A stretch of DNA of 64,000 bases from Phycisphaerales bacterium. GTDB lineage: Bacteria > Planctomycetota > Phycisphaerae > Phycisphaerales > UBA1924. The stretch is from the NCBI GenBank assembly GCA_038260025.1, contig JBBSOF010000012.1:7603-71602 (forward strand), given 5' to 3'. The position numbers and the translations under genes were made by a program. Positions 14,812-59,707 of the stretch are shown here, in pieces. Position 1 is the stretch's first letter; each line of letters opens with the position of its first letter. The notes under the pieces are model-generated. The model was not told where the DNA came from and did not search any database. It was given only the letters and a program-made list of their open reading frames with translations.

Positions 14812-16314
14812 ATGAGCGGCCCCGCGACAGCACCCGAACCCCCTGCCGCGATACAGACTCCGATCCGCGAGTTGCTGCGCATTGCCGGCCCGACAGTGGC
14901 GACGATGACGTCGTACACCGTCATGCAGTTCACCGATAAGTGGCTGGTGTCGCGCCTGGGGCCGGAGATGGTGGGGGCGCAGGGCAATGGGGGGCTTGCC
15001 GCGTGGGTGCCCCAGTCGCTGGCGATGGGCGCGTTCACGGTCATCAACACCTACGTGTCGCAGAACATGGGCGCGGGCAGGCCGGAGCGCGGGCCCGCCT
15101 ACGCCTGGAACGGCCTGTATCTGGGCCTGCTGTGGTATTTGCTGCTCCTGCCCTACGCGTTCATGCTTCCGTGGGTGTTCGCCAAGGCGGGGGTGGAGCC
15201 ACACCAGGCCGAGCTTGCCGCGCAGTACGGCTCGATCCTCGTCTTTGGCTCGGTGCTCAACCTCTCGACGCGGGCCATCTCACAGTTTTTCTACGGCATG
15301 CACAAGGCCAGCGTTGTGCTTGTGGCAGGTGTTGCCGCGAACGTCCTGAATATCTTCGTGTCGGCCATCCTGGTGTTTGGTGACGGGCCCACGCCCGACG
15401 GCCTGGGCCTGTTCGGGCGTGTCACCGGCTCTATTGCCTCCACGCTGCACATCGCGCCCCAGGGCATTGCGGGGTCCGCCCACGGCACCGTAATAGCGAC
15501 AGCCCTGGAGCTTGCCATCCCACTCTTCGTTTTTCTTGGCCCCACTCTCAACAAGCGCTACGCGACGAGGGCCGCGTGGCGGCCGTCATGGCTGCACATC
15601 CGTGACATCATCAAGACGGGCTGGGCAGCCGGGCTGATGTTCGGCAACGAGATGATCTGCTGGGGCTACTTCATGGTGCACCTGGTCAGCAGCTTTGGCC
15701 GGGTGCCCGCCTCGGCGGGCTGGATCGCACACCAGTACATGTCGCTGTCGTTCATGCCGGCGGTGGGGATCTCGGTTGCCGCGACGGCCATCGTGGGCAA
15801 GTACATGGGCATGGGCCGCCCGGACATTGCGCAGCGGCGGGCGTGGCTCTCGGTGGCGGTCGCGGGCGCGTACATGGGCACGTGCGCCCTGCTGTTCGTT
15901 ATCTTCCGCGTGCCGATGGTGGAACTCTTTGTTGAAGCCGGCACCCCGCCGCAGGCGGCGGCGGAACTGGTACGCCTGGGCTCGCTCATGATCATTGCCG
16001 CGGCTGCCTTTCAGGTGTTCGACGCGGCCGCGATGGTGCTGTCTGGTGCTTTGCGCGGTGCGGGCGATACGGTGGTGCCGGGCGTGGCAACGGTGGTGGC
16101 GTCGTGGGTGGTGATCGTGGGCGGCGGCACGGCCATGGTGCGGTTTGTGCCGCAACTGGAGTCGATCGGGCCATGGGTGGCTGCCGCGGCGTACATCATT
16201 ATTTTGTGCGCGATCCTGCTGGTGCGGTTTCTGGGCGGGCGGTGGAAGTCGATCAAACTGCTGCATGGCGAGCCAGCGGCGGCGGCCGCGGCGGTGGTGG
16301 ACGGGATTGTCTAG
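14812..16314 (+). CDS. MATE family efflux transporter
   Basis: IRELLRIAGPTVATMTSYTVMQFTDKWLVSRLG is a typical MATE N-terminus, with ~12 hydrophobic segments. The ORF track opens at 13939, but that part is antisense to the peptidase gene. ATG 14812 (or 14794) chosen. Confidence 0.85.
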   Translation: MSGPATAPEPPAAIQTPIRELLRIAGPTVATMTSYTVMQFTDKWLVSRLGPEMVGAQGNGGLAAWVPQSLAMGAFTVINTYVSQNMGAGRPERGPAYAWNGLYLGLLWYLLLLPYAFMLPWVFAKAGVEPHQAELAAQYGSILVFGSVLNLSTRAISQFFYGMHKASVVLVAGVAANVLNIFVSAILVFGDGPTPDGLGLFGRVTGSIASTLHIAPQGIAGSAHGTVIATALELAIPLFVFLGPTLNKRYATRAAWRPSWLHIRDIIKTGWAAGLMFGNEMICWGYFMVHLVSSFGRVPASAGWIAHQYMSLSFMPAVGISVAATAIVGKYMGMGRPDIAQRRAWLSVAVAGAYMGTCALLFVIFRVPMVELFVEAGTPPQAAAELVRLGSLMIIAAAAFQVFDAAAMVLSGALRGAGDTVVPGVATVVASWVVIVGGGTAMVRFVPQLESIGPWVAAAAYIIILCAILLVRFLGGRWKSIKLLHGEPAAAAAAVVDGIV

Positions 16315-16434: not shown

Positions 16435-18117
16435 GTGCCCAAACCCCGCGCCAAAACCGCCCCCAGCCCTGTCCGCACCGTCTCCTTCGTGAGCCTGGGT
16501 TGCCCCAAGAACCTCGTTGATTCCGAGAAGATGCTCGGGCTGCTGGCCGAGTCGGGGCTCGCGCCCGTTTCTCACGACCCCGAATCGGGGGGCTTCGGGG
16601 GTGCCGACGCGGTGGTGGTGAACACTTGCGGTTTCCTTGAGGCCTCGAAGGAAGAGTCCCTTGGGGTCATCATCGAAGCCGTGAAGGCCAAGGAACGCGG
16701 CGAGGTGCAGCGCGTGGTCGTCGCCGGCTGCCTGGTGCAGCGCCACCGCGCCAAGATGCTCGAGTGGGCCCCGGGCATCGACGCCATGATCGGCGTCTTT
16801 GACCGCGACAAGATCGTTGAGGCCGTCACCGGTGTCGCGCCCGACCGTCAAACGCTGGCCGAGGCCTCTGACGGACCAAAGTACTGGATCGCGGGCAACG
16901 CCTTGCAGGCTGCCAAGGCCCGAGGCATGGCCACCGCCGGCCTCACCGTCAACGGCAAGGATGGCAAGGGCCTGGGGTATTTTGAAGACGACTCCGCGCG
17001 GCTCCGCCTCACGCCCCGCCACTACGCCTACCTCCGCGTCAGCGAGGGGTGCAACCAGAACTGCGCGTTCTGCACCATCCCCTCAATCCGCGGCAAGATG
17101 CGCAGCAAGCCCCTCGACCGCATCGTGAGCGAGGCCCGCGAACTGCTCAACGATGGGGCGTTCGAGCTGCTGCTCATCGGGCAGGACACCACCAGCTACG
17201 GTGATGACATCGGCATCGGAATGACCCCTGTCTCCACCGGGGGGGCGGGCTTTCAGCCCGCCGCCAACTCTTCCGCCCCCGCCTCCATCGGCGGGCTGCC
17301 GATGCTCCTGCGGGCTCTCTCCGACACCGTCCGCGACACCACCGGCCAGGGCTGGCTGCGCTTGATGTACGCCTACCCCACCAACTTCGGCGAGCCGGTG
17401 ATCGATGCCTTCGCGGAACTGACGAAGAACGGCCACCTGCTGCCATACCTCGATATCCCGCTCCAGCACGCCTCCACGCGTGTGCTCAAGGCGATGCGGC
17501 GTCACGTCACGAGCGAGCAGCAGGAGCGGCTGATCGAGCGCCTGCGCGAGCATGTGCCGGGCATGGCGATCCGCACGACGTTTATCTCTGGCTTTCCCGG
17601 TGAGACCGAGGAAGACCATGAGGAGTTGCTCCGCTTCATCGAGCGGATGGAGTTTGAGGCTGTTGGCGTGTTTGAGTACAGCCACGAGCCGGGCACGGTG
17701 GCCGGCACCATGGAGGACGACCCCGCCCTTGCCGTGCCCGCCAAGGTCAAGAAGCGGCGGCGTGATGAGGTGATGGAGCTCCAGCAGCAGATCGCCTTCC
17801 GCCGTGCCGCGGCAATCGCCAGCATGTTCGACGAGAAGACCCGCAAGGGCGGGCAGCAGATAGATGTGATCATCGATGCCGCGCTGCGCGTGCAGGGCGA
17901 GAAGACCAGCGGCGTGGGCGCGGGCGGCAAGCTCTACCAGGGCCGCACCTACTTCCAGGCCCCGCAGATTGATGCCGTGACCTATGTGCAGAGCCGCGAG
18001 AAGCTGGCGGGTGGCGAGGTCGTCCGCTGCACGGTGGTCGGCAGCGATGGGTATGACCTGATCGCTCGGCCGACGGCGGAGCTGGAAAAGCGGACGACGC
18101 TCCGTGTACTGAAGTAG
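16435..18117 (+). CDS. rimO: ribosomal protein S12 methylthiotransferase RimO
   Basis: VSFVSLGCPKNLVDSE..VVVNTCGFLE (MTTase N-domain), radical-SAM CNQNCAFCTIP, and a C-terminal TRAM-like region. GTG 16435 chosen; the start is uncertain. Confidence 0.9.
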   Translation: MPKPRAKTAPSPVRTVSFVSLGCPKNLVDSEKMLGLLAESGLAPVSHDPESGGFGGADAVVVNTCGFLEASKEESLGVIIEAVKAKERGEVQRVVVAGCLVQRHRAKMLEWAPGIDAMIGVFDRDKIVEAVTGVAPDRQTLAEASDGPKYWIAGNALQAAKARGMATAGLTVNGKDGKGLGYFEDDSARLRLTPRHYAYLRVSEGCNQNCAFCTIPSIRGKMRSKPLDRIVSEARELLNDGAFELLLIGQDTTSYGDDIGIGMTPVSTGGAGFQPAANSSAPASIGGLPMLLRALSDTVRDTTGQGWLRLMYAYPTNFGEPVIDAFAELTKNGHLLPYLDIPLQHASTRVLKAMRRHVTSEQQERLIERLREHVPGMAIRTTFISGFPGETEEDHEELLRFIERMEFEAVGVFEYSHEPGTVAGTMEDDPALAVPAKVKKRRRDEVMELQQQIAFRRAAAIASMFDEKTRKGGQQIDVIIDAALRVQGEKTSGVGAGGKLYQGRTYFQAPQIDAVTYVQSREKLAGGEVVRCTVVGSDGYDLIARPTAELEKRTTLRVLK

Positions 18118-44157: not shown

Positions 44158-44375
44158 GCCGATGCCTTCGCGTCATCGCCCGTGCTCACGTGCTCCTTCG
44201 CCGCGTCGAGCACCGCTTCCGCCTGCTCGCGCTTCACGGTTGGGAACTGGGCGAGGAAATAATCGAGCGTGTAGCCCCGCTTGAAGTGGTCAAACAGCGT
44301 GACCACCGGAACCCGCGTGCCGCCAAAGCACGGCGCGCCGTGCATGACTTCTGGGTCAGACTTGATGGGGATCAT
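44154..44375 (-). CDS. DUF433 domain putative antitoxin, pair 1
   Basis: Trimmed to MIPIKSDPEVMHGAPCFGGTRVPVVTLFDHFKRGYTLDYFLAQFPTVKREQAEAVL, the DUF433 signature. Confidence 0.8.
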   Translation of the reverse strand: MIPIKSDPEVMHGAPCFGGTRVPVVTLFDHFKRGYTLDYFLAQFPTVKREQAEAVLDAAKEHVSTGDDAKASA

Positions 44376-44435
44376 GCCGCAATCGTACCCGAAGCCGCAA
44401 GCCCCCCGAATGAGCCGGGTTTCATAGTGGTCCCC

Positions 44436-44458
44436 GTGGCACCGGGCTTCCGCCCGGT
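44436..44458. repeat. GTGGCACCGGSCTTCCGSCCGGT hairpin element (copy 1)
   Basis: gtggcaccgggcttccgcccggt. 7-bp stem ACCGGGC/GCCCGGT, loop ttcc. Related to the two copies at 49905-50003. Confidence 0.5.
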
Positions 44459-44570
44459 TCTTTGTCGCGCCTCGCGACGAACTCCTGCATCCCTGCTCAC
44501 ACCTTCTACCTTCGTCGCGAAGCGAGACGAAACACCTGGCAGAAGCCAAGTGCCACCGACCGGTGCCACA

Positions 44571-45695: not shown

Positions 45696-46999
45696 GCCGT
45701 ACCGACCGGCTCAGGCGGATCAAGCTGCTCATCGGCGATCATCGCCGGCGCGGAAACGTAGTGCTTGACCTGCATGCCCGCGGGAAAGTCCATCAGCCGG
45801 TGCGTCGCGGTCCGCTCCTGCGTGCGGTCGACAGCGATCACAAGCCCAAGCGAGAAGGCCGTCAGTATCCACCCCGTGCCGCCGTACGACAGCAGGGGCA
45901 GCGCGATTCCTTTGGTTGGCGCCATGCCGGTCACAACGCACAGGTTGATGACCGCCTGAAGCCCGACCGTGGCGATGACGCCCAGCGTGAACAGCTTGAG
46001 CACCGGGTTCTGCTCCCGCCGCATGATTGAGAAACCCGTCCACACCAGCGTGGCGAACAGGGCCAGCACCAGCGCCGCCCCCGCGATGCCCAACTCTTCG
46101 CAGATAATCGCGAAGATGAAGTCCGTGCGGTCCTCGGGCAAGTAGCCGTACTTCTGAAGCCCGTGGCCTAAACCCCGACCGAAGCCGCCGCCGTTGGCGA
46201 TCGCCAGCAGCGACTGGATGGTGTGATAGCCGATGCCCTGCGGGTCGGCGTAGGGGTCCATGAAGGCCAGGATGCGCTTGACGCGGTACGGGCTGGTGAC
46301 AATCGCCCCGCCGATGCCCAGCAGAGCTACCGGCACGGCCATGGCGAAGTACCGCAGGCGCGCCCCCGATGCCAGCAGCAGCAGGCACGCGACCGCCCCG
46401 ATCAGCACGCCCGTGCCCAGGTCCTCCAGCACGATGAATCCGGCGACAAAGGCCAAGCACCCCAGGGCCGGGACCAGGCCCTTCCAGAACTGCTGGATCA
46501 CGCCCGCCCGCGAGGCCCCGTACACCGCCACCAGGATCACCATGCCCCACTTGGCGATCTCGCTCGGCTGCACCGACAGCGCCTCGCCCAGCCCTGGAAG
46601 GGGCAGTTCGATCCATCGGTGCGAGCCGTTCATGTGCCGCGACAGCCCCGGCAGGTACACCAGCCCGCACAGCAGCACCAGGCCCAGGCACCCTGCCAGC
46701 GTGAACATCAGCACTTTGCGGGGATCAGCCGCGCCCAGCGCGGCAAGCCGACGCACCGGCACGAACGCCGCGACCGCCATCGCCGTGAGCGCCAGCACCA
46801 TGTACACCGTGCTGCGTGAGAACATGATCTTCGCGGCAGAAAGCTCGGGAACGGCCTGCTCAGGCCCCGACACCGGCTGGATGTGCATGCCCGCGGAGTT
46901 CACCATCACCACACCGATGGTGAGCAGCCCGATGACACACAACGCGATGATCTGGCCGGAGCGCATAGCGACAGCCAGTATCGGCAAGGCCGCACCCAA
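45692..46999 (-). CDS. ftsW: SEDS-family peptidoglycan polymerase / lipid II flippase FtsW/RodA
   Basis: About 10 TM segments; SLQPSE-like LSVQPSEIAKW, TDFIFAIICEELG, GIALPLLSYGGT. Confidence 0.9.
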   Translation of the reverse strand: MGAALPILAVAMRSGQIIALCVIGLLTIGVVMVNSAGMHIQPVSGPEQAVPELSAAKIMFSRSTVYMVLALTAMAVAAFVPVRRLAALGAADPRKVLMFTLAGCLGLVLLCGLVYLPGLSRHMNGSHRWIELPLPGLGEALSVQPSEIAKWGMVILVAVYGASRAGVIQQFWKGLVPALGCLAFVAGFIVLEDLGTGVLIGAVACLLLLASGARLRYFAMAVPVALLGIGGAIVTSPYRVKRILAFMDPYADPQGIGYHTIQSLLAIANGGGFGRGLGHGLQKYGYLPEDRTDFIFAIICEELGIAGAALVLALFATLVWTGFSIMRREQNPVLKLFTLGVIATVGLQAVINLCVVTGMAPTKGIALPLLSYGGTGWILTAFSLGLVIAVDRTQERTATHRLMDFPAGMQVKHYVSAPAMIADEQLDPPEPVGTA

Positions 47000-47024: not shown

Positions 47025-47732
47025 TTAGTTCGTAAACGCCATCGACCCGGTGATCATGGTCACCCCAGCCGGGATGAAAGGAGCCGAACTGCGGGTGACG
47101 CAGAAACTGTCGCCGTCGCAGTGGCCCGTTCGCTCACTGACGCACGCCGCCCACACCTCGGCCTCTGCGGTGCTGGTAGGCAAAGACTCACTGGGCCCCT
47201 GCATGGCGATCACCAGCACCCGGTCGGGGTTGGCGTGGCAGGCGTTGGCCATGGCGGTGCGCAGCAGTTCCTGGCTGCCCACGTTCGCGAGGTCGCCCTT
47301 GAAGTTCCCTGGGTTCATCTGGATGCACGAGCAGCGGTCGTCCGCGTCCTGAAAAACCGCCATGACCACCGACTGAATTTCCGGCTCGATAGGGGCCTGG
47401 GTCACCAAGACTGGCTGCGGAGCCTTCCCCACCGCCACCGTCACAGGGGTTGACTCAACATCGGTGGGAGTTGGCAGCGTCAACACCGGCGCAGGATTGG
47501 TCCGCGAGATCTGCTGGGGGACGGTGGCAGGCTTCGCCCATAGGAACATCCCCAGGCCGACGCACGCGGCTGCCGCCAGCCCACCCATGCCCAGGGTCAT
47601 CCGACGGATCAGGGCGCTGCGGCCACTAGCCTGCACTGCCGCCCATTCGAAGCGCGACGCCGCTGGCGACTCGAGGCGGTCTACCTCGTCGGCCATCCGG
47701 ATCAGCGCTGCCAGGTCTTTGTCATTCAGCAT
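47025..47732 (-). CDS. putative anti-sigma factor (single-pass membrane protein, Cys-rich exodomain)
   Basis: Trimmed to MLNDKDLAALIRMADEV. One TM segment (LGMGGLAAAACVGLGMFLWA). Lies 27 nt downstream of an ECF sigma gene. No canonical zinc anti-sigma motif, so the call rests on position only. Confidence 0.4.
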   Translation of the reverse strand: MLNDKDLAALIRMADEVDRLESPAASRFEWAAVQASGRSALIRRMTLGMGGLAAAACVGLGMFLWAKPATVPQQISRTNPAPVLTLPTPTDVESTPVTVAVGKAPQPVLVTQAPIEPEIQSVVMAVFQDADDRCSCIQMNPGNFKGDLANVGSQELLRTAMANACHANPDRVLVIAMQGPSESLPTSTAEAEVWAACVSERTGHCDGDSFCVTRSSAPFIPAGVTMITGSMAFTN

Positions 47733-47758
47733 AGAGCACACTCCACCCACGCTGACTT

Positions 47759-48442
47759 TTATTGCCCGGCCACGGAGTCCTGACCGGCGGAATCCGCGCG
47801 ATGGCCGAGGTTTTCCAGATAGCGGCGGATTTTGTCGTAGGCGGCTTTTTTCCGGGCATTGGCGGTGCTTGCCGCGACGCCCAAGCGCTGGGCCAGTTCT
47901 CGGTCGGTGGTCCCGCCGCTGGAGGATCTCAGAATCCACCGCTCCTCATCCGACAGCCCGCACGCGTGCTCGCCATCCTTCAGGCAATGGCGGACCGTGT
48001 CGATCATCTCCGCCAGTTTGGTCTGGGCTGCGGGGTCCTCAGAAATCCCGAGTTCGGCCATGCCGGGCGCGGCGGCCTCCAGATGGACGTTCGCCCGCCC
48101 CACGCTGCGCATGTGCTGGAGCCACACACGGTAACCCACGGCATACACAAAGGTTGAGATGGCCGCCCGGGAGGGGTCATACTTCCCGGCACGGAGCGCC
48201 TGCCATACCGCGACCCACGTTTTTTGGCCGAAATCATCGGCAAGTTCTGCGCGTCCGCCTGTTCGCTCCATGAAGAGCCGGAAGAGGCCGCCGCCCAGCC
48301 GCCGGTGCAGCGCTGCGAAGGCCTCGGAGTCACCACCCGCGGCCCTGGCGGTCAGGTGCTGGAGAGACTCATCCCGCCGCGGGAGGTTGGTCGCCTGGGG
48401 CTGGGGGACGTCGTCCGGCATTGGGATAGCAAATGAGGTCAT
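47759..48442 (-). CDS. ECF-type sigma-70 family RNA polymerase sigma factor
   Basis: Region 2 (FAALHRRLGGGLFRLF..ELADDFGQKTWVAVW) and region 4 HTH (LSDEERWILRSSSGGTTDRELAQRLGVAASTANARKKAAYDKIR). Confidence 0.8.
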   Translation of the reverse strand: MTSFAIPMPDDVPQPQATNLPRRDESLQHLTARAAGGDSEAFAALHRRLGGGLFRLFMERTGGRAELADDFGQKTWVAVWQALRAGKYDPSRAAISTFVYAVGYRVWLQHMRSVGRANVHLEAAAPGMAELGISEDPAAQTKLAEMIDTVRHCLKDGEHACGLSDEERWILRSSSGGTTDRELAQRLGVAASTANARKKAAYDKIRRYLENLGHRADSAGQDSVAGQ

Positions 48443-49255: not shown

Positions 49256-49885
49256 TTACTCCTCGTCGTCTGCCTTGCGGGGCGCGGTCATCAGCGGCAT
49301 TTTTTCAAGCACGGCATCAACCAGACCGTACTCGAGCATCTCCTTGTCATCCAGCCACTTGTTGCGGTCGCAGTCGCGGGCGATGCGCTCGAAGGGTTGG
49401 CCGGTGGCGTCCGCGTAAATCTGGTACAGCCGCTCGCGGATGCGGAGCATCTCGCGGGCCTCGATCTCGATATCGCTGGCCTGGCCCTCCATCACGCCGC
49501 CCAGCAGGGGCTGGTGCATGAGGTTGCGGGCGTTGCGGAGCGTGAACCGCTTGCCCTTGGTGCCGGCGCACGCCAGCACGCTGCCCATGCTGGCGGCCTG
49601 CCCGATGATGTAGGTGCAGACATCGCACTGGATGAAGCGCATGGTGTCGAGCATGCCCAGCCCGGCCGAAACGCTGCCGCCGGGGCTGTTGATGTACAGA
49701 TGGATGTCCATCTTGGGATCCTCGTTGGCGAGGAAGAGCATCTGGGCGACGACGAGATTGGCGATCTCGTCGGTGACAGGGCCGCCGAGGAAGATGATGC
49801 GGTCCTTGAGCAGGCGGGAGTAGATGTCGTACGCGCGCTCGCCGCGCTGGGATTTTTCGATGACGATGGGGACGAGGTAAGACAT
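49256..49885 (-). CDS. clpP: ATP-dependent Clp protease proteolytic subunit (paralog 1)
   Basis: [35 protein letters not shown] (Ser), MHQP (His). Confidence 0.95.
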
Positions 49886-49904
49886 GGTTGTCCTTGGTTT
49901 GTTC

Positions 49905-50003
49905 GTGGCACCGGCCTTCCGGCCGGTGTCTTCGTTCTAAGCCCTTGAGTTTGTTGGCGGGATTGCACTGCCTCCGCAGACCACCGGCCGGAAGGCCGGT
50001 GCC
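49905..50003. repeat. two identical 22-24-nt hairpin elements in opposite orientation between clpP2 and clpP1
   Basis: ggcaccggccttccggccggtg (49907-49928) and its exact reverse complement caccggccggaaggccggtgcc (49982-50003). Each is an 8-bp stem with a 4-nt loop. Confidence 0.65.
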
Positions 50004-50005
50004 AC

Positions 50006-50608
50006 TTACCGCGAGAAGATCGGGTTTGCCGCGGCCTTGGGCGGTTCGGTCAGCACCTCGTCGGCGAGGCCATATTTCACGGCTTCCTCGGCGGTGAAGT
50101 ACTTGTCGCGCTCCGAATCGCGCTGGACGGTGTCGACCGACTGCCCGGTGTGCATCGCGATGATGCGGGTGAGCTCGGCCTTGGCTTTGATGATCTGCTC
50201 GGCCTGGATGCGGATGTCCTCGGCCTGCCCGGTGATGCCGCCGTAGGGCTGGTGGATCATCACCTTGGCGTGCGGCAGCATGTAGCGCTTGCCCTTGGCG
50301 CCCGCGGTCAGCAGCAGCGAGGCGCCCGAGTATGCCCGGCCCAGGCAGTAGGTGGAGACCGGGCTGGTGAGGAACCGCATGGTGTCGTACAGGGCGAGGG
50401 TGTCGTCAACCGAGCCCCCCGGCGAGTTAATGTAGAAGTTGATCTCCTGGCCCCGCTTCTGGTTCTCCAGGTAGAGCATCTGCATCATGACGCGGGCGGC
50501 GGAACCCTGGTTGATCTCTCCGATCAGGAAGACGATGCGGTTTTCCAGCAACAACTCATCGATGGTCATCTCGCGGGTGCGCTGGTAGCTGACGTTCGCG
50601 GCGGGCAT
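50006..50608 (-). CDS. clpP: ATP-dependent Clp protease proteolytic subunit (paralog 2)
   Basis: [30 protein letters not shown] (Ser retained), MIHQPYGG (His). Start trimmed to MPAANVS with an AGGAA SD. Confidence 0.9.
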   Translation of the reverse strand: MPAANVSYQRTREMTIDELLLENRIVFLIGEINQGSAARVMMQMLYLENQKRGQEINFYINSPGGSVDDTLALYDTMRFLTSPVSTYCLGRAYSGASLLLTAGAKGKRYMLPHAKVMIHQPYGGITGQAEDIRIQAEQIIKAKAELTRIIAMHTGQSVDTVQRDSERDKYFTAEEAVKYGLADEVLTEPPKAAANPIFSR

Positions 50609-50911
50609 AGGCGGTTCCTGTTCACAGAAGTCTAAAGACAGAGGCCCCACGGCCGTTGTTCTCGGTCCATCCCCCGGGCGATGGTATTCCCCGGCGTTGG
50701 GCTTGCTGCCAACATCGACCGATCAGGCGGGTGCGCTGAGGTGGAAGCGACGGAAGATGGGCAAAGGGCATGCCGAAGTCATCGCGCGTTATCTCCACCC
50801 CGCCCCATCCGGCGACTGCCTATTTGGCGGTCAGCCGTCAGAACGCCACGCCCCGCGTGTCCGGTGAACCGCGAGGAGCGGCAAGCCGTCTGCGGCTAGA
50901 CTTTTGTCGCA

Positions 50912-51199
50912 ATGGAAACGCCCTACGACCCATCCAGCACGGTGACCCCCGAAGACCTTGCCGGAGACCGCGTGCTCCCCGGTTCGGAGTTGTTCGGACT
51001 GGTCTGGATAAACCCGGAGCGGATGAGCGGGACACCCTGCTTTTTCGGCACGCGTGTCCCCGTCAAGACCCTCTTTGACTACATCCGGGGCGGGCATCCG
51101 CTGGAAGACTTCTTCCTCGACTTCCCCGGCGTGTCTCGTACCCAGGTCGAGGGCGTGCTGCGTCTGGCTTCGGATTCGTTGCTTGGGAACGCCGCGTGA
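50912..51199 (+). CDS. DUF433 domain putative antitoxin, pair 2
   Basis: INPERMSGTPCFFGTRVPVKTLFDYIRGGHPLEDFFLDFPGVSRTQVEGVL, with a ~30-aa N-terminal extension. Confidence 0.8.
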   Translation: METPYDPSSTVTPEDLAGDRVLPGSELFGLVWINPERMSGTPCFFGTRVPVKTLFDYIRGGHPLEDFFLDFPGVSRTQVEGVLRLASDSLLGNAA

Positions 51200-51525
51200 A
51201 GCTTCTCCTGGATCACTGCGTTCCGCAGCGGTTCGCGCTCCTTCTGTCCGGGCACGAGGTGTCACTCGCTTCGCAGCAGAACTGGGAAGCACTGCGAAAT
51301 GGCAGGCTGCTCGCGGTGGCCGCATCGGCAGGATTTGAAGCGATGGTGACCGTTGATCGCAATATTCAGTACCAGCCGAACCTGGCGAAACTGCCTTTGG
51401 CCGTCGTGGTGCTGCGGGCTGTGTCAAACGACCTCGATAACCTCGCACCGCTCGTTCCTGCTCTCCTCAAGGCCCTTCTCAGCCTCTCTCCGCGTACGTA
51501 CATAGAGGTCGGAGCCGAGGCCTGA
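51196..51525 (+). CDS. DUF5615-like (PIN-like) putative toxin, pair 2
   Basis: MKLLLDHCVPQRF..; similar in length and pattern to 43819..44157. 4-nt overlap with the DUF433 gene. Confidence 0.7.
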   Translation: MKLLLDHCVPQRFALLLSGHEVSLASQQNWEALRNGRLLAVAASAGFEAMVTVDRNIQYQPNLAKLPLAVVVLRAVSNDLDNLAPLVPALLKALLSLSPRTYIEVGAEA

Positions 51526-54914: not shown

Positions 54915-56264
54915 ATGCACCTGGGCGACACCATCGTGGCCTGCGCCAGCCCTCCGGGGCGTGCGGGCCGCGCATTGGTGCGGCTTTCGGGCCCGGGCGT
55001 CTTTCCGTTGCTCCACAGTGTGATGAAAGGGGCCGTGCCCTGCGAGCGTGGAGCGCGGCCCGCGCTGCTGAGCGCGGAAAAGCTCACGCTGCCCGTGCTC
55101 CTCGCCTGCTTCCCCGCACCGCACTCCTACACCGGTGAAGACGCGGCAGAAATCCAGTGCCCCGGGAACCCCACGCTCGTTGACCGCCTGCTGCGAGCGA
55201 TCACCGTTAAGGAAGGCGTGAGGCTCGCCGAGCCCGGGGAGTTCACCGCTCGCGCGTACCTCGCCAGGCGGCTGTCGCTGGAACAGGCGGAGGGGGTTGC
55301 CGCGACCATTGCCGCGGCAAACCAGGATCAACTTGACGCCGCCCGCGATCTGCTCGAAGGCCGCACCGGCAAGGCGTACCGCGCCTGGAGTGAGGAGCTC
55401 GCCACGCTGCTGGCGCTGGTCGAGGCGGGAATCGACTTCACCGACCAGGAGGATGTCGTCGCCATCTCGGCCGATGCCTTGCGGATGCGCCTACAGGTTC
55501 TGAAGGCAGAGATAGAGCAGCACGCCGGCGTGCGGGCCGGCGCGGAAGCGCAGAACGCCCTGCCGCGCGTCGCCCTTGTGGGCGCTCCGAACGCGGGCAA
55601 GTCCACGCTCTTCAATGCCATGCTGGGGCGACAGCGCGCGGTGATGAGCCCTGTGGCGGGTACCACGCGCGATGTGCTGGTGGAGGAGATCGACCTTTCT
55701 GCGGAGAGCCCCGGCGCGGGAAGTGTGCTGCTGGAAGACCTGGCAGGGCTTGAGCGCGGCCGGTCACCGGAATCCTCAATCGCGAGCGCCGCGGCACAAA
55801 CAGCCGCCCGCCAAGCCGTCGCCGATGCTGATCTGCTGGTCTGGTGCGACCCTGCCGGCCTGTTTGAAGCCTTCGACAACCCGCTGCCAGCCAAGCCCAT
55901 GCTCCGTGTGCGCACCTTTGGCGACCAGCCTGTCTCGCAGCCCACACGGGAGGACCTTGCCGTGTGCAGCGTGGATGGCTGGAACCTGGGGCTGCTGCGC
56001 CGGGCGATCGCCGAGAGGGCGGTGGGGGGCCGGGCCGCGGGTATCTCGGCGCTGCTGCCGCGGCACCGACGGGCCATGACTGGCGCACGGCACCGGCTGG
56101 AGGATGCCCTCACATGCATCGGGGGTGGCTCGCGATTGACCTCGCCGGAGGTTGTCGCCCTCACGCTCCGCCACGGGCTGGATGAGCTAGGCGAGCTGGT
56201 GGGGCACATCTCGCCCGATGAGGTGCTGGGGCGGGTCTTTGCGGCCTTCTGCGTCGGCAAATAG
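54915..56264 (+). CDS. mnmE: tRNA uridine-5-carboxymethylaminomethyl modification GTPase MnmE
   Basis: [36 protein letters not shown]1 [14 protein letters not shown]-terminal FCVGK. Confidence 0.9.
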
Positions 56265-56284
56265 GGGGCCGTAGGATTGGGGCG

Positions 56285-56683
56285 ATGACGATGAGCCTGC
56301 CTGCCATACAGCCCACTCGCGTGCCTGCGAGTCAGTCCATGCCCACCTGCGAGCATCAGGCCCCCGAGCCGGCCCCGGCCAGCGGTGAAGGTGCGACCGC
56401 CGTTGCGGCACCGCCGAAGCCTGCGCCCGCGAAGCCCACCCCGGCGATGCTGCCGCAGTACCGCGTGCTGCTGCACGATGACCCAATCAGCGAGATGGGG
56501 TTCGTGGTGGAAACACTGGTGCAGTTGACCCCGCTGGACAAGGTGAGTGCCTCGCGCGTGATGCGCGAGGCGCACCGGCGCGGGGTGTCCCTGGTGCTGG
56601 TCACGCACAAGGAGCGGGCCGAGCTGTACCAGGAGCAGTTCGCGAGCAAGCGGCTGAAGGTGACGATCGAGCCGTTTGTCTGA
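56285..56683 (+). CDS. clpS: ATP-dependent Clp protease adaptor ClpS
   Basis: PQYRVLLHDDPISEMGFVVETLVQL..ASRVMREAHRRGVSLVLVTHKERAELY, with a ~45-aa Pro/Ala-rich N-terminal extension. Confidence 0.85.
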   Translation: MTMSLPAIQPTRVPASQSMPTCEHQAPEPAPASGEGATAVAAPPKPAPAKPTPAMLPQYRVLLHDDPISEMGFVVETLVQLTPLDKVSASRVMREAHRRGVSLVLVTHKERAELYQEQFASKRLKVTIEPFV

Positions 56684-56918
56684 CATAACAGCGAAGACGG
56701 CAGGCCGTCCGAATAACGTCGCACCGATACGTTCGCGCCCGCTGCCAAGGATCCCCGCCGAAAATCTAGGATTTCGTGTCTTGCAGACCCCGCACGCCGC
56801 GCCTGCCGCGCAGTTTGCCCACGCCCGATGTTTGGGAAGGGTGAGCGCGGATTCAGGCGTTCTTCCGCGCACACATCGCCCTTGACGCCGATGCAACGAG
56901 AGTCCCGCGGGGCGGATT

Positions 56919-57434
56919 GTGTTCAACCGGCGGGATGTGGCAAGGAGCGTGGATGTGCGGACCCTTCACCTTGGCGACCTCCTGGTAAAGCACGGCGTGC
57001 TCACAGCGCCCCAGCGCGATGAGGTTCTCGTTGCACAGAAGGCCCGCGGCGGGCCCTTCGGCGCCGTCGCGGAAGAGATGTTCGGCATCAGCGCTTCCGC
57101 CGTCGAACGGGCGTGGGCGGAGCAGTACGCGGCCTTCGCGCCGCACGTCGATCCGCGCCACTACAACGTCAACCCGCGGGCGCTCGATGTCATCACCCGC
57201 CGCCAGGCGTGGCAGTTCCGCATGCTGCCCCTGGAGCTGGCGGGCAACGATGTGGTGGCATGTACCACGCAGGAGAACCTCTGCCGCGCCCTCAAGTTTG
57301 CGGGCTGGCGTCTGGGCCACGCGTGCCAGTTCGTGCTCGCCGAGCCCCGCCAGTTGGGCGAGGCCATGCTGCAGCACTACCCGATGGCGGGCATGACGGC
57401 GGACATGGTGACGAGCATGGTGATGCCGGGGTAA
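56919..57434 (+). CDS. stand-alone T2SSE_N / MshEN-like domain protein
   Basis: HLGDLLVKHGVLTAPQRDEVLVAQ, then KARGG, then PFGAVAEEMFGISASAVERAWAEQ, then VITRRQAWQFRMLPLELAGNDVVACTTQENL..QFVLAEPRQLGEAMLQHY. No ATPase domain. Start uncertain. Confidence 0.6.
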   Translation: MFNRRDVARSVDVRTLHLGDLLVKHGVLTAPQRDEVLVAQKARGGPFGAVAEEMFGISASAVERAWAEQYAAFAPHVDPRHYNVNPRALDVITRRQAWQFRMLPLELAGNDVVACTTQENLCRALKFAGWRLGHACQFVLAEPRQLGEAMLQHYPMAGMTADMVTSMVMPG

Positions 57435-57576
57435 GGGGGGGTCCCAGGGGCGTGCGCAGCATCAAAAAGCCCACTGGCCCTCTCTTCGCGGCAGTCCTAA
57501 ACTCCTGACCCAGCACACCGCCAACCGGCCGGATTGCCCGTTTCCTGGGCTGTCGCCGCTGTCAGGAGTTTCCCCC

Positions 57577-58515
57577 TTGGCCCACGATCCCCTCGACACC
57601 GTTATCGGTATTTCTGACTCTGTCCGCCGCGACCCTCAGGCGGCGGGCCGCCATGTTGCCGCGGCTGAGAAGCTCGAAAAAGAGGGCGACCGCCTCGCAG
57701 CCGTCGCCGAGCTGCGCAAGGCCGTGAACCTCGACCCCGACAGCCACCAGTCGCTCTTCAAGCTGGCCTACCAGCTCGACCTGCTGGGCGAGGAGGATGA
57801 GGCTCTGGCCCTGTACGAGCGCTGCGTCGCAACGCCGCCAGCGATGGTTAACGCCCTGCTCAACCTGGCGGTGCTGTATGAGGACCGCGGGGAATATGGC
57901 AACGCAGAGCGATGCCTGCGGCAGATTCTGGACACCCGCCCCAACCACATCCGCGCCCGGCTGTTCATGAAGGACGTGCAGGCCAGCCGCGAGATGGTGG
58001 TGGTGGAGGAGCAGGACCGCGACATCTTCAAGCGCAAGGCGCTGCTGGACACGCCTGTGACGGACTTTGAGCTTTCGGTGCGTGCCCGCACGTGCCTGAA
58101 GAAGATGAGCATCCGCAGCCTGGGCGACCTGCTGCGGATTACCGAGGCCGAGCTGCTGAGCTACAAGAACTTCGGCGAGAGCAGCCTGGTTGAGATCAAG
58201 AAGATGCTCACGGCCAAGGGCCTGCGCCTTGGCCAGGGGCTTGAGGATGCCCACCGCCAGGCGCGGCGGGCGCTGATCGAGCAATACAAGGGCACGGGCA
58301 AGGAGACGGTGCTGGCCAAGCCCGTGTCCGAGCTGCAGCTCTCGGTGCGTGCCCGCAAGGCGCTCCAGCTCCTGAGCATCCAGACCCTGGGAGACCTTGC
58401 CAGCCACACCGAGGCCGAGCTGATGGGCATCAAGAACTTCGGCGCAACCTCGCTGAAGGAAGTGCGTGAGAAGCTGACGGAGTACGGCCTGCTGCTCCGC
58501 AAGATCGATACTTGA
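57577..58515 (+). CDS. TPR protein with two RNA polymerase alpha-subunit C-terminal-domain-like (alpha-CTD) modules
   Basis: TTG start with a CAGGAG SD. TPR helices fill the N-terminal half. Two HhH modules follow: FELSVRARTCLKKMSIRSLGDLLRITEAELLSYKNFGESSLVEIKKML and LQLSVRARKALQLLSIQTLGDLASHTEAELMGIKNFGATSLKEVREKL. Confidence 0.75.
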   Translation: MAHDPLDTVIGISDSVRRDPQAAGRHVAAAEKLEKEGDRLAAVAELRKAVNLDPDSHQSLFKLAYQLDLLGEEDEALALYERCVATPPAMVNALLNLAVLYEDRGEYGNAERCLRQILDTRPNHIRARLFMKDVQASREMVVVEEQDRDIFKRKALLDTPVTDFELSVRARTCLKKMSIRSLGDLLRITEAELLSYKNFGESSLVEIKKMLTAKGLRLGQGLEDAHRQARRALIEQYKGTGKETVLAKPVSELQLSVRARKALQLLSIQTLGDLASHTEAELMGIKNFGATSLKEVREKLTEYGLLLRKIDT

Positions 58516-58526
58516 GCGGCGTTCCC

Positions 58527-58560
58527 GGGTACCCCCTCTCTCCGAGAGGGGAGTCCGGTG
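58527..58560 (+). repeat. GGGTACCCCCTCTCTCCGAGAGGGG hairpin element (copy 2)
   Basis: gggtaccccctctctccgagaggggagtccggtg, 12 nt after the stop of the alpha-CTD gene. Same 8-bp stem and 3-nt loop as the 34274-34310 copy. Confidence 0.55.
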
Positions 58561-58598
58561 CTGTTTTACGCTCAATAGCGAACTGTTCGATACCAAAG

Positions 58599-58630
58599 GC
58601 CCGCACGCTCAACGCGTCGGGCTTTTTTTT
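58599..58630 (+). terminator. rho-independent terminator
   Basis: GCCCG(c)ACGC-tcaac-GCGT-CGGGC stem-loop followed by eight T (58623-58630). Confidence 0.7.
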
Positions 58631-58658
58631 CAAGACAGCACCGTCTCGGGGAGACGGG

Positions 58659-58928
58659 TTATGGAAGTTGCCCCCGCTCCCCCGTCGCGCGGTACCCCTC
58701 GCGTGCCTTCATGTACTGCTCGGGCGAAACCTTGAGGTCCGGCTCGATGCCCTGCTGATGCTGCGTGTGCAGGTGCTTGAGGAATGGGACACACCACATG
58801 CACCCCGTGCCCGCCGAGAGGCATTCGGAAATGAGCGATGCTACGGGCGGGTCTTCACGCGCCATGTACGTGCGTATCTTGCGCAGCGTCACTCGGAAGC
58901 ACAGGCACACTTCATCGTCGGGGTCCAC
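58659..58928 (-). CDS. BFD-like [2Fe-2S]-binding domain protein
   Basis: VCLCFRVTLRKIRTYM ... CLSAGTGCMWC gives a Cys-x-Cys ... Cys-x2-Cys layout typical of bacterioferritin-associated-ferredoxin-like domains. Confidence 0.7.
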   Translation of the reverse strand: MDPDDEVCLCFRVTLRKIRTYMAREDPPVASLISECLSAGTGCMWCVPFLKHLHTQHQQGIEPDLKVSPEQYMKAREGYRATGERGQLP

Positions 58929-58972
58929 GGGGGATTGTAGTGGGATGGACCTTCAGAAAGCTCCGTGGAACG

Positions 58973-59707
58973 TCAGTACGCGCCGGCCATCCTGCGCTGC
59001 AGCGGGAAGCACAGGGTCGCGAGGTTCACGCACATGCGGTCGCTCACGCGGGCGTAGCGGTCATACTCCTGGTCGGCCTGCACCTTGACCTCGCCCGGGG
59101 TGGTGTTGCAGTGGGCCATCTGGCCGCTGCACTCCTGCATCAGGCCATCCACCATCGTGCTGTCGCACTCAAAGTGGCACATGAACCCGAAGGTCCGCAG
59201 CCCGGCGCGGAAAATCTGCACCGGCGTCTGCTTCGTGCCCGCGAGCAGCGCTGCGCCCGGCGGCAATTCCTTGATCTCCTGCCCGCACGAGAACACCTGC
59301 ATCGAGTTCCACGGCACACCGCCGAGCATGGGCTCGATCTGCCCAGTCGTGTTGAGGGACATCTGATAGAACCCCACCGCCGGCTTCTCCCGCGGCCCGA
59401 CCTTGCCCCCCAGCGCATGGGCGATCAGTTGTGCGCCCAGGCAGATGCCGATGACCGGGCGCTGCTGGGCGTGCATCGCCGTGATCAGCGACACTTCCTG
59501 CTGCATCCAGTCGTACTTCTCGACATCCGTCACGTTCTGAGGGCCGCCAAGGATGACAAGCCCTTCAATCCCGTCAAGATCCACCGGCAGCGCGGCAAGG
59601 CCCAGCCTGTCGGGCCGCCGCACGCTGAGCTTGAAGCCATGATCGCGGAGCGTCGCGCCCAGGCGGCCGGGGCCACCGATGTCTGAATGCTGCAGGATGA
59701 TGATCAT
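58973..59707 (-). CDS. class I glutamine amidotransferase-like protein
   Basis: IIILQHSDIGGPG..LVILGGPQNV..PVIGICLGAQLIAHALGG (nucleophile elbow Cys) ..GFMCHFE (His-x-Glu). Confidence 0.8.
   Translation of the reverse strand: MIIILQHSDIGGPGRLGATLRDHGFKLSVRRPDRLGLAALPVDLDGIEGLVILGGPQNVTDVEKYDWMQQEVSLITAMHAQQRPVIGICLGAQLIAHALGGKVGPREKPAVGFYQMSLNTTGQIEPMLGGVPWNSMQVFSCGQEIKELPPGAALLAGTKQTPVQIFRAGLRTFGFMCHFECDSTMVDGLMQECSGQMAHCNTTPGEVKVQADQEYDRYARVSDRMCVNLATLCFPLQRRMAGAY

What the first reader, a model, noticed from the sequence alone, without database searches (positions are those of the whole stretch)
56919..58515. Stand-alone MshEN/T2SSE_N-like protein beside a TPR protein carrying two RpoA alpha-CTD-like domains
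Seen: ORF 56919..57434 contains HLGDLLVKHGVLTAPQRDEVLVAQ. This fits the published 24-residue MshEN c-di-GMP-binding motif (RLGxxLLxxGLLxxxxLxxxLxxQ) except at two positions. A 5-residue spacer (KARGG) follows, then a second, degenerate 24-residue segment ending in Q, then a T2SSE_N-like core. No secretion ATPase domain follows. 142 nt downstream, a 312-aa protein combines N-terminal TPRs with two tandem helix-hairpin-helix modules that match the alpha-CTD signature (LSVRxxxxL...I.(S/T)LGDL...(T/S)EAEL...KNFG..SL.E(I/V)). Known: alpha-CTD contacts UP elements and activators; MshEN domains are high-affinity c-di-GMP receptors. Inference: an alpha-CTD pair detached from the alpha-NTD could act as a decoy or bridge at promoters, and the neighbouring MshEN-like protein could couple this to c-di-GMP. 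I know of no characterised system with this pairing.
Basis: partly seen in the sequence, partly recalled or inferred. Interest (0 to 1): 0.7.

Follow-up and report, generated by a model that had tools for sequence, protein, structure and literature searches.

The report
Two conserved genes, adjacent by rearrangement
Both genes are real and strongly conserved in Phycisphaerae (a stand-alone cyclic-di-GMP-receptor-type domain, and a TPR protein with two copies of the RNA polymerase alpha C-terminal domain), but they lie side by side only in this strain, so their adjacency is no evidence that they work together.

Summary
Gene 1 (true start 56955, 159 aa) is a complete stand-alone MshEN domain. 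Gene 2 (57577-58515, 312 aa) has three TPRs plus a capping helix and two bona fide alpha-CTD modules.

Among 68 related MshEN-anchored loci with enough downstream flank and 61 TPR-alphaCTD-anchored loci with enough upstream flank, none has the window's adjacent, same-strand arrangement. The two genes lie within 8-10 kb in 1/80 and 3/81 loci, never adjacent and always on opposite strands. On two large contigs they are about 0.84 Mb and 0.46 Mb apart.

Each gene has its own conserved context:
- MshEN-like: clpS -> MshEN-like -> rimO -> ftsW -> murG -> GGDEF diguanylate cyclase.
- TPR-alphaCTD: MatE -> TPR-alphaCTD -> SpoIID, or a convergent BFD-like gene.

In the window MatE and RimO are fused 40 kb away. 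That is the reciprocal junction of a lineage-specific rearrangement.

Both proteins evolve as slowly as ClpP and neither has been characterised. The MshEN-like family keeps both Gly and both Gln ligand contacts but has R->H and L->R changes, so c-di-GMP binding is plausible and unproven. The alpha-CTD modules keep most DNA-binding residues, and module 1 keeps the sigma-contact residues.

Interest is moderate for each family separately and low for the pair.

The parts
56955..57434 (+). Stand-alone MshEN-like gene, 159 aa. The mechanical ORF starts at GTG 56919; the real start is GTG 56955.
56942..56947 (+). Shine-Dalgarno AAGGAG, 7 nt before the GTG at 56955.
   Evidence: Read from the sequence.
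56967..57038 (+). MshEN motif 1, HLGDLLVKHGVLTAPQRDEVLVAQ. The six key positions read H-L-G...R...L...Q.
   Evidence: motif definition from PMC5013675.
57039..57053 (+). 5-residue spacer KARGG.
57054..57125 (+). MshEN motif 2, degenerate: PFGAVAEEMFGISASAVERAWAEQ. The six key positions read P-F-G...V...W...Q.
57141..57389 (+). MshEN_C / T2SSE_N alpha-beta core (residues 75-157 of the 171-aa ORF).
   Evidence: Pfam PF05157; AF2 secondary structure.
57564..57568 (+). Shine-Dalgarno AGGAG, 8 nt before the TTG start of gene 2.
   Evidence: Read from the sequence.
57577..58515 (+). TPR + 2x alpha-CTD gene, 312 aa, TTG start.
57634..57993 (+). TPR domain, residues 20-139: seven helices, i.e. three TPRs plus a capping helix.
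   Evidence: Pfam TPR models; AF2; Foldseek matches to CTPR3- and HOP-TPR1-type structures.
58012..58215 (+). Alpha-CTD module 1, residues 146-213.
58303..58482 (+). Alpha-CTD module 2, residues 243-302.
56285..56683 (+). clpS, the conserved upstream neighbour of the MshEN-like gene.
   Evidence: Pfam ClpS; same strand directly upstream in 44 of 75 loci.
58659..58928 (-). BFD-like [2Fe-2S] gene, a convergent neighbour of the TPR-alphaCTD gene that recurs in related loci.
   Evidence: Pfam Fer2_BFD scores 24.7 bits, just under its cut-off of 26; found in 17 of 59 loci.
14857..16314 (+). MatE gene, the ancestral upstream neighbour of the TPR-alphaCTD gene, displaced here.
   Evidence: MatE lies directly upstream in 38 of 61 loci.
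16435..18117 (+). RimO/MiaB-type methylthiotransferase gene, the ancestral downstream neighbour of the MshEN-like gene, now fused behind MatE.
   Evidence: RimO lies directly downstream in 27 of 68 loci.

Best explanation
These are two separate, slowly evolving Phycisphaerae genes that a lineage-specific rearrangement placed side by side. They are not a dedicated two-gene system.

Gene 1 is a 159-aa stand-alone, complete MshEN domain: an N-terminal four-helix bundle with two 24-residue motifs, plus a C-terminal alpha/beta subdomain. I infer, at about 0.55, that it still binds c-di-GMP or a related cyclic dinucleotide across the two helical hairpins. It would then pass the signal to a partner through its highly conserved MshEN_C face, acting as a small second-messenger adaptor. 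Its ancestral setting is the same-strand run clpS -> MshEN-like -> rimO -> ftsW -> murG -> GGDEF cyclase. That points to a local c-di-GMP module near cell-wall and division genes.

Gene 2 is a cytoplasmic scaffold of three TPRs plus a cap, a flexible linker, and two alpha-CTD helix-hairpin-helix modules joined by a conserved helix. I infer, at about 0.5, that the two modules bind DNA the way alpha-CTD does and that the TPR groove holds a peptide of a partner protein, probably at or near promoters. Its ancestral setting is MatE -> TPR-alphaCTD -> SpoIID, or a convergent BFD-like gene.

Shown: domain identities, folds, residue conservation, synteny and the rearrangement. Inferred: ligand binding, DNA binding and partners.
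For: Pairing absent:
- TPR-alphaCTD lies within +-10 kb of the MshEN-like gene in 1 of 80 species-level loci, and there it is on the opposite strand with rimO between.
- MshEN-like lies within 8 kb of TPR-alphaCTD in 3 of 81 loci, all on the opposite strand and not adjacent.
- The adjacent same-strand arrangement occurs in 0 of 68 and 0 of 61 informative loci.
- The genes are about 0.84 Mb and 0.46 Mb apart on single contigs.
- The window carries MatE directly followed by RimO at 14857-18117, the reciprocal junction.
- The junction is real: an independent assembly has it.

Own contexts:
- clpS lies upstream in 44 of 75 loci and rimO downstream in 27 of 68.
- rimO-ftsW-murG-GGDEF follow in order in 13 of 56 loci.
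- MatE lies upstream in 38 of 61 loci, SpoIID downstream in 19 of 59 and BFD-like in 17 of 59.

MshEN identity. In 120 family members, both Gly and both Gln (the only polar ligand contacts in MshEN, per PMC5013675) and L2, L21, F2', V17', W21' are invariant or nearly so.

Alpha-CTD identity. In 144 representatives at the 50% identity level, R265, C269, N294, G296 and S299 are near-invariant, as are D259 and E261 in module 1.

Strong constraint: against the same relative genome, TPR-alphaCTD is 93% identical and MshEN-like 86%, versus ClpP 89%, MnmE 61%, YidC 56% and ClpS 56%.
Against: - Lack of synteny does not exclude an interaction in trans. Both families are widespread in the same class, and I could not compute a genome-by-genome co-occurrence profile.
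- In this strain there is no predicted terminator in the 142-nt gap, so the two genes may be co-transcribed here.
- c-di-GMP binding is uncertain. Position 1 is H in 82 of 120 sequences and position 17 is R in 118 of 120, where MshEN has R and L. Both motifs fail the relaxed motif of PMC5013675, and NF053729 is below cut-off.
- DNA binding by gene 2 is uncertain. K298 is T or S family-wide, K297 is E in module 1, and N268 is T/K in the window protein.
- The GGDEF gene is 5-8 kb from the MshEN-like gene and is retained in only 13 of 56 loci.
Confidence: 0.8

Rival explanations
1. One reading: the two proteins form a functional pair. The MshEN-like protein senses c-di-GMP and controls a free alpha-CTD decoy or bridge at promoters.
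For: - The genes are adjacent on the same strand, 142 nt apart, with no predicted terminator in this strain.
- Both families are very conserved and occur in the same class.
- The two arrays lie within 3 kb of each other, convergently, in a few other loci: L002, L082, L084 and L110.
Against: - The adjacent same-strand arrangement occurs in 0 of 68 and 0 of 61 informative loci.
- The genes are 0.46-0.84 Mb apart in two genomes.
- Each gene has a different, deeper conserved context.
- The reciprocal MatE|RimO junction shows the adjacency is a rearrangement product.
- TPR-alphaCTD relatives extend to low-GC marine lineages and to 445-aa forms whose loci contain no MshEN-like gene.
Confidence: 0.06
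2. The MshEN-like protein has lost nucleotide binding and is only a protein-protein interaction module, like the degenerate N1 domain of XpsE/GspE.
For: - R->H at motif position 1 and L->R at position 17. In motif 2, positions 7, 10 and 11 fall outside the relaxed motif.
- NF053729 scores 31.6 bits, below its cut-off of 38.
- PMC5013675 reports a more than 10-fold loss of affinity when a conserved hydrophobic residue is mutated, and loss of binding in XpsE through changes that include L29R.
Against: - G3 and Q24 of both motifs, and L2, L21, F2', V17' and W21', are invariant or nearly so in 120 sequences. That level of conservation is not expected if the site were idle.
- More distant members have R or K at position 1.
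- Of the eight XpsE changes listed in the paper, the family shares only one position, R38, which is Pro here rather than Gly; the paper's relaxed motif allows Pro.
- An intact GGDEF cyclase lies in the ancestral gene run.
Confidence: 0.35
3. The TPR-alphaCTD protein is not a transcription factor. It is a DNA-tethering scaffold tied to cell-envelope or division processes.
For: - In the deeper lineages and the 445-aa forms, a SpoIID gene follows the TPR-alphaCTD gene: gaps of 26-53 nt in L162-L164, abutting ORFs in L140. MatE lies upstream.
- K298, a DNA-binding residue in E. coli alpha by my own recollection of the literature, is replaced family-wide.
Against: - The conserved neighbours encode membrane or periplasmic enzymes with no known DNA link, so the operon may be fortuitous.
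- Module 1 keeps D259 and E261, the sigma-region-4 contact patch of alpha-CTD (PMC1874639).
Confidence: 0.2
4. Split alpha subunit: RpoA in these bacteria lacks its own CTD, and this protein supplies it in trans.
For: None directly. No rpoA gene was present in the 2.2 Mb of related sequence held, so the host alpha-CTD could not be inspected.
Against: From general knowledge, not tested here: alpha-CTD is near-universal in bacterial RpoA. The protein has no alpha-NTD-binding feature that I can identify.
Confidence: 0.03

Closest known systems
MshEN domain of V. cholerae MshE (PDB 5HTL) and the GSPII-B domain of T. thermophilus PilF (8PDK/8PFA)
   Same: - Same two-subdomain fold (Foldseek E about 7e-8, probability 1.0).
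- Two 24-residue motifs separated by a 5-residue spacer.
- Conserved Gly3 and Gln24 in both motifs, and most of the hydrophobic ligand contacts.
   Different: - Stand-alone, with no T2SSE ATPase.
- Position 1 is H rather than R, and position 17 is R rather than L.
- Motif 2 is P-F-G...F-G...W.
- NCBIfam motif model is below cut-off.
- Ligand binding is untested.
[quoted passage not shown]
   Same: An MshEN module used as a portable c-di-GMP input. There is a weak hit to NfrB residues 479-620 (E 1e-3). PMC5013675 reports MshEN_N fused to many other domains.
   Different: Here nothing is fused to the domain. The output must come from binding a separate, unidentified partner.
C-terminal domain of the bacterial RNA polymerase alpha subunit (E. 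coli 1COO, 1LB2, 3K4G; B. subtilis 1Z3E)
   Same: - Ungapped alignment over about 65 residues for each module.
- R265, C269, N294, G296 and S299 are kept.
- D259 and E261 are kept in module 1, and T285, E286, E288 and L289 are kept.
   Different: - No alpha-NTD.
- Two tandem copies behind a TPR domain.
- K298 is T/S and K297 is E (module 1), with an extra Arg at position 267.
- The window protein has T/K at N268.
- RpoA equivalog models score far below cut-off (129.8 against 302).
Other alpha-CTD-like modules outside RpoA: NF005841 (PRK07758, a 95-position model named 'hypothetical protein') and the central region of the BREX kinase PglW
   Same: Weak HMM similarity over one module: 46 bits to NF005841, and E 2.5e-8 to PglW positions 772-868.
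   Different: Both hits are well below the family cut-offs and the architectures differ. Neither explains the TPR plus tandem arrangement.

Membership tests
MshEN domain (Pfam PF05157; c-di-GMP receptor of PMC5013675) | HMM match above the curated cut-off. | tested here: met
   PF05157 scores 26.2-26.4 bits against a cut-off of 23.1.
MshEN domain (Pfam PF05157; c-di-GMP receptor of PMC5013675) | NCBIfam c-di-GMP_motif model NF053729 at or above its cut-off. | tested here: not met
   31.6 bits against a cut-off of 38.
MshEN domain (Pfam PF05157; c-di-GMP receptor of PMC5013675) | Fold: an N-terminal four-helix bundle plus an alpha/beta MshEN_C subdomain. | tested here: met
   AF2 pLDDT 92.6, with helices 6-12, 18-31, 35-43 and 47-61 followed by a beta-alpha core. 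Foldseek matches 8PFA and 5HTL at E about 7e-8.
MshEN domain (Pfam PF05157; c-di-GMP receptor of PMC5013675) | Two 24-residue motifs joined by a 5-residue spacer. | tested here: met
   H17-Q40, K41-G45, P46-Q69 in 171-aa numbering.
MshEN domain (Pfam PF05157; c-di-GMP receptor of PMC5013675) | Six key residues per motif: R1, L2, G3, L17, L21, Q24. | tested here: inconclusive
   Motif 1 reads H-L-G-R-L-Q and motif 2 reads P-F-G-V-W-Q. By my count 10 of 12 positions are compatible. R1->H and L17->R deviate, and R at position 17 is found in 118 of 120 sequences.
MshEN domain (Pfam PF05157; c-di-GMP receptor of PMC5013675) | [quoted passage not shown] | tested here: not met
   Motif 1 fails at positions 1 and 17. 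Motif 2 fails at positions 7, 10 and 11 (motif; sequence).
MshEN domain (Pfam PF05157; c-di-GMP receptor of PMC5013675) | Binds c-di-GMP. | not testable with these tools
   Needs ITC, DRaCALA or DSF.
GspE/PilB/MshE secretion ATPases | A T2SSE ATPase domain with a Walker A motif following the N-domain. | tested here: not met
   The ORF stops after the MshEN_C subdomain. PilB-type ATPases in related loci carry their own N-domains, so this is not a split PilB.
RNA polymerase alpha subunit (RpoA) | An alpha-NTD (dimerisation and core-assembly domain) and a full-length equivalog score. | tested here: not met
   The RpoA models match only their C-terminal parts (positions 215-298 or 243-334) and score 82-130 bits against cut-offs of 228-523.
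Alpha-CTD domain (Pfam PF03118) | HMM match above cut-off and a helix-hairpin-helix fold. | tested here: met
   131.2 bits in two stretches. Ungapped alignments to solved alpha-CTDs. AF2 helices.
Alpha-CTD domain (Pfam PF03118) | The DNA-binding '265 determinant'. The residue list R265, N268, C269, G296, K298, S299 is from my own knowledge; PMC1874639 states only that residue 265 and its neighbours contact DNA. | tested here: inconclusive
   In both modules R265, N294, G296 and S299 are kept, N268 is replaced (T in module 1, K in module 2) and K298 is replaced (S, T). C269 is kept in module 1 only; module 2 has Ala. Family-wide in module 1, N268 is N in 135 of 144 and K298 is T in 138 of 144.
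Alpha-CTD domain (Pfam PF03118) | [quoted passage not shown] | tested here: inconclusive
   Module 1 has D259 in 125 of 144 and E261 in 140 of 144. Module 2 is variable, and E/Q in the window. Function was not tested.
TPR repeat proteins | TPR HMMs above cut-off and a helical-repeat fold. | tested here: met
   TPR_8 scores 40.3 bits and TPR_14 38.4 bits, among others. AF2 shows seven helices at residues 20-139. Foldseek finds CTPR3-like matches at 1.8-2 A rmsd.

The most novel reading that the evidence does not exclude
The TPR + 2x alpha-CTD protein is a free, trans-acting alpha-CTD. It would be a class-wide general transcription cofactor of Phycisphaerae that occupies UP-element-like DNA next to RNA polymerase through the retained R265/N294/G296/S299 surface. 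Module 1 would contact sigma region 4 through D259/E261, and the TPR groove would bring in a partner. This is a promoter-architecture component not described in model bacteria. Any c-di-GMP input from the MshEN-like protein would act in trans.
Probability: 0.2. Interest if true: 0.75.

Novelty: new variant of a known kind. Interest (0 to 1): 0.35.

Why it matters
The proposed c-di-GMP-to-alpha-CTD module would have been a new route from a second messenger to promoter architecture. The data do not support it, so it should not be propagated as a system.

Two things remain useful.

1. A detached tandem alpha-CTD protein is conserved across a whole class. There are 357 clusters at the 50% identity level, and it evolves as slowly as ClpP. 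If it works at promoters, it would change how transcription initiation is pictured in Planctomycetota.

2. A stand-alone MshEN family ancestrally heads an ftsW-murG gene run that contains a diguanylate cyclase. From my own knowledge, not tested here, planctomycetes lack FtsZ. If that holds for this group, the family is a concrete candidate link between c-di-GMP and cell-wall or division control.

Tried and rejected
1. Split-PilB idea, i.e. the stand-alone protein as a detached N-domain of a truncated ATPase. Rejected: T2SSE ATPases found in related loci (L019, L021, L067, L111) have their own N-terminal domains, and L019 and L021 carry a canonical motif pair.
2. A riboswitch or other RNA in the intergenic regions. 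Rfam found nothing credible in 56200-59000.
3. Promoter and terminator scan of 56200-59000. It returned one weak minus-strand promoter-like site and one intragenic terminator-like site, neither above shuffle expectation.
4. DNA-level homology of the rearrangement junctions to relatives. Only the coding flanks align, so the breakpoints could not be mapped to the base.
5. Foldseek of the full TPR-alphaCTD model returned only TPR structures, with no multi-domain analogue.
6. Literature searches for detached alpha-CTD or TPR-alphaCTD proteins, and for stand-alone MshEN proteins in Planctomycetota, found no characterised example.
7. A search for rpoA or other alpha-CTD paralogues in the window and in 2.2 Mb of related loci found none. 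No comparison with the host's own alpha-CTD was possible.
8. GGDEF motifs in the window: none found by the motif scan, and no orthologue of the array's cyclase. The HDOD protein at 7624-9966 is a histidine kinase.
9. PF26169, listed among precomputed domains of the homologues, is not in the Pfam copy available, so it could not be evaluated.
Full report
OBSERVATION. Both ORFs are present on the + strand as described, 142 nt apart. Local GC is 0.675 for 56-58 kb, like the rest of the window. The long minus-strand ORFs that overlap them fail a codon-position GC test, whereas both + strand ORFs pass it with GC3 of 0.86-0.87.

The first ORF scores above Pfam's cut-off for MshEN (26.2 bits against 23.1, residues 75-157). 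Its N-terminal 52 residues match NCBIfam's c-di-GMP_motif model end to end, but below that model's cut-off (31.6 against 38). The second ORF scores 131 bits for RNA_pol_A_CTD in two stretches, plus several TPR models above cut-off.

One correction is needed. All homologues start at MRTLHLGD and are about 159 aa. An AAGGAG box sits 7 nt before the GTG at 56955, and an independent gene call gives 159 aa. Gene 1 is therefore 56955-57434. Gene 2 starts at the TTG at 57577, behind an AGGAG box.

WHAT GENE 1 IS. A profile of the family matches the N-terminal domains of PilB (Geobacter, E 4e-9), M. xanthus PilB, T. thermophilus PilF and V. cholerae MshE (5HTL, E 8e-6) over its whole length. The AF2 model is confident (pLDDT 92.6, pTM 0.83). 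It shows four N-terminal helices followed by a beta-alpha core. Its best Foldseek matches are the c-di-GMP-bound PilF GSPII-B and MshE structures (E about 7e-8, probability 1.0). TM-scores are only about 0.5, and I read this as a different angle between the two subdomains.

Wang et al. (PMC5013675) define six key residues per 24-residue motif: R1, L2, G3, L17, L21 and Q24. The backbone amides at G3 and the following residue, and the Gln side chains, make the only polar contacts to the ligand. The other conserved residues contact the guanines hydrophobically; R1 does so by stacking its side chain along the base.

- In the window protein, motif 1 reads H-L-G...R...L...Q and motif 2 reads P-F-G...V...W...Q.
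- In 120 family members G3, Q24, G3' and Q24' are invariant or nearly so, as are L2, L21, F2', V17' and W21'.
- Position 1 is H in 82 sequences, R in 15, Q in 14 and K in 7.
- Position 17 is R in 118 of 120.

So the site is under strong selection in a modified form. One guanine pocket (L2, V17', W21') is intact. The other has Arg in place of Leu.

Both motifs fail the relaxed motif used in that paper. The paper also reports more than 10-fold affinity losses for hydrophobic substitutions, and loss of binding in XpsE. I therefore put c-di-GMP, or related dinucleotide, binding at about 0.55.

It is not a detached piece of a truncated ATPase. PilB/GspE-type ATPases in related loci have their own N-domains, and L019 and L021 carry a canonical motif pair.

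WHAT GENE 2 IS. The AF2 model (pLDDT 83, pTM 0.43) shows these parts:

- a disordered N-terminus;
- seven TPR helices at residues 20-139;
- a low-confidence linker around residues 143-147;
- alpha-CTD module 1 (residues 146-213);
- a helical linker (residues 222-237);
- alpha-CTD module 2 (residues 243-302).

Module 1 aligns without gaps to E. coli alpha-CTD and module 2 to B. subtilis alpha-CTD. RpoA equivalog models match only their C-terminal parts and score far below cut-off, so this is not RpoA.

An exhaustive search finds 357 clusters at the 50% identity level with E of 1e-30 or better. Most of the more distant ones listed are about 430-460 aa, with extra N-terminal sequence that looks like further TPR-type helices (not confirmed). 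The only names they carry are 'tetratricopeptide repeat protein' and 'alpha C-terminal domain-containing protein', and the named members come from Phycisphaerae or Planctomycetota.

Across 144 representatives:

- Module 1 keeps R265 (144), N268 (135; the window's T is an exception), C269 (143), N294 (144), G296 (144) and S299 (142).
- Module 1 has E at K297 (131) and T at K298 (138), and it keeps D259 (125) and E261 (140).
- Module 2 keeps R265, N294, G296 and S299, and has K/R at position 268.

The roles of the 265 determinant (DNA), the 261 determinant (sigma region 4) and the 287 determinant (activators) are as summarised in PMC1874639. The exact residue list for the 265 determinant is from my own knowledge.

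IS THE PAIR A SYSTEM? No.

- Eighty species-level genome loci were anchored on the MshEN-like gene, with +-10 kb of flank. TPR-alphaCTD occurs in one of them, L002, on the opposite strand beyond rimO.
- Eighty-one loci were anchored on TPR-alphaCTD. The MshEN-like gene occurs in three (L082, L084, L110), always on the opposite strand and not adjacent.
- Counting only loci with enough flank, the window's arrangement occurs in 0 of 68 and 0 of 61.
- On two large contigs the genes are about 0.84 Mb apart (JAXMAJ010000001.1) and about 0.46 Mb apart (JAXMAK010000001.1).
- Only L165, an independent assembly encoding identical copies of both proteins, shares the junction. That shows the junction is not an assembly artefact.

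THE GENES' OWN CONTEXTS.

MshEN-like gene:
- clpS lies directly upstream on the same strand in 44 of 75 loci, always with a 150-500 nt spacer. rimO lies directly downstream in 27 of 68.
- Of 56 loci with at least 7 kb downstream, 18 continue with ftsW and murG. Thirteen continue further with an orthologous GGDEF diguanylate cyclase that has intact RxxD and RxGGDEF motifs. In L076, murE and murF follow.

TPR-alphaCTD gene:
- A MatE gene lies directly upstream in 38 of 61 loci, across relatives from 56% to 93% identity.
- A SpoIID gene lies downstream in 19 of 59 loci, in the lineages at 61% identity or less. In the 445-aa forms (L162-L164) it follows at gaps of 26-53 nt, and in L140 the ORFs abut.
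- A convergent BFD-like gene lies downstream in 17 of 59 loci, as in the window.

In the window, MatE (14857-16314) is followed directly by RimO (16435-18117), and ftsW-murG lie at 44.6-47.0 kb on the other strand. The two ancestral arrays have been cut between MshEN-like|rimO and MatE|TPR-alphaCTD and rejoined reciprocally.

CONSTRAINT. Against the same relative genome (L002), TPR-alphaCTD is 93% identical and MshEN-like 86%. ClpP is 89%, MnmE 61%, YidC 56% and ClpS 56%. Both proteins are therefore under unusually strong purifying selection. In TPR-alphaCTD the constraint covers the whole length, including the linkers and the disordered N-terminal peptide DPLDTVIG.

MECHANISM, inferred.

- Gene 1 is a small cyclic-dinucleotide receptor. 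Ligand state would alter binding of a partner through the conserved MshEN_C face (RRQAWQF, CTT, RALKFxGW, YPMxGM). The best contextual clue is the diguanylate cyclase and the ftsW-murG genes in its ancestral run.
- Gene 2 is a bivalent alpha-CTD-type DNA binder with a TPR peptide-binding domain. It most likely acts at or near promoters. A role as a DNA tether linked to envelope genes (SpoIID, MatE) is the main alternative.

Nothing ties the two together beyond their co-occurrence in the same class.

NOVELTY AND SCORE. I found no characterisation of either family in the literature I could search. Both are built from known domains and are already annotated generically in public records. The proposed pairing is not a real system. 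Each family on its own is a new variant of a known kind and of moderate interest.

Noticed in passing
window 14857-18117 (MatE 14857-16314, RimO 16435-18117); also 44571-46999: MatE is directly followed by RimO. This is the reciprocal junction of the rearrangement that put TPR-alphaCTD behind the MshEN-like gene. ftsW and murG, ancestrally downstream of rimO, are on the opposite strand about 27 kb away.
   Followed up: partly
L080:15343-16698; L076:5547-6860; also L004, L013, L014, L042, L045, L048, L051, L057, L061, L062, L077, L079: An orthologous GGDEF diguanylate cyclase lies at the end of the same-strand run MshEN-like -> rimO -> ftsW -> murG. Its I-site and GGDEF motif are intact, and its N-terminal region of about 250 aa has no Pfam hit. 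In L076, murE and murF follow. No orthologue is present in the 64-kb window.
   Followed up: partly
L140:8897-10198; L159:3820-5073; L162:9404-10708; L163:9359-10702: A SpoIID (PF08486) gene follows directly downstream of TPR-alphaCTD in the deeper lineages and in the 445-aa forms. Gaps are 20-53 nt, and the ORFs abut in L140. This suggests an old operon with a peptidoglycan-remodelling enzyme.
   Followed up: partly
window 58659-58928 (-): A small BFD-like [2Fe-2S] gene, 70-84% identical in relatives, is the convergent downstream neighbour of TPR-alphaCTD in 17 of 59 related loci. Its Pfam score is just under the cut-off.
   Followed up: partly
window 57586-57609 (residues 4-11 of the TPR-alphaCTD protein): The N-terminal peptide DPLDTVIG is invariant or nearly so in 57 relatives, yet it is predicted to be disordered (pLDDT below 50). 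It may be a docking motif, or a peptide that binds the protein's own TPR groove.
   Followed up: no
window 56744-56749 and 56888-56892: Weakly conserved boxes (GYCAAG-like, and CCGAT about 60 nt before the start) appear in an alignment of 14 regions upstream of the MshEN-like gene. Together with the constant 150-500 nt spacer after clpS, this suggests the gene has its own promoter.
   Followed up: no
window 7624-10638 (-): An HDOD + HisKA + HATPase_c sensor kinase (780 aa) lies next to an HTH_17 + receiver-domain regulator (209 aa).
   Followed up: no
window 49256-50650 (-): Two tandem ClpP paralogues. The same tandem pair appears in relatives such as L080 and L062.
   Followed up: no
window 50912-51525 (+) and 43819-44549 (-): Two pairs of small overlapping ORFs that look like toxin-antitoxin or PIN-like modules. 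They were not tested against Pfam.
   Followed up: no
window 25562-28105 (-) and 47025-47939 (-): An 847-aa ORF and a 304-aa ORF with coding-type codon bias and no Pfam match.
   Followed up: no
L019:4307-6262 (-) and the equivalent gene in L021: A PilB-type ATPase with a canonical tandem MshEN motif pair lies about 3.7 kb from the stand-alone MshEN-like gene in two related loci. Canonical MshEN-type receptors therefore coexist with the stand-alone family in this clade.
   Followed up: partly
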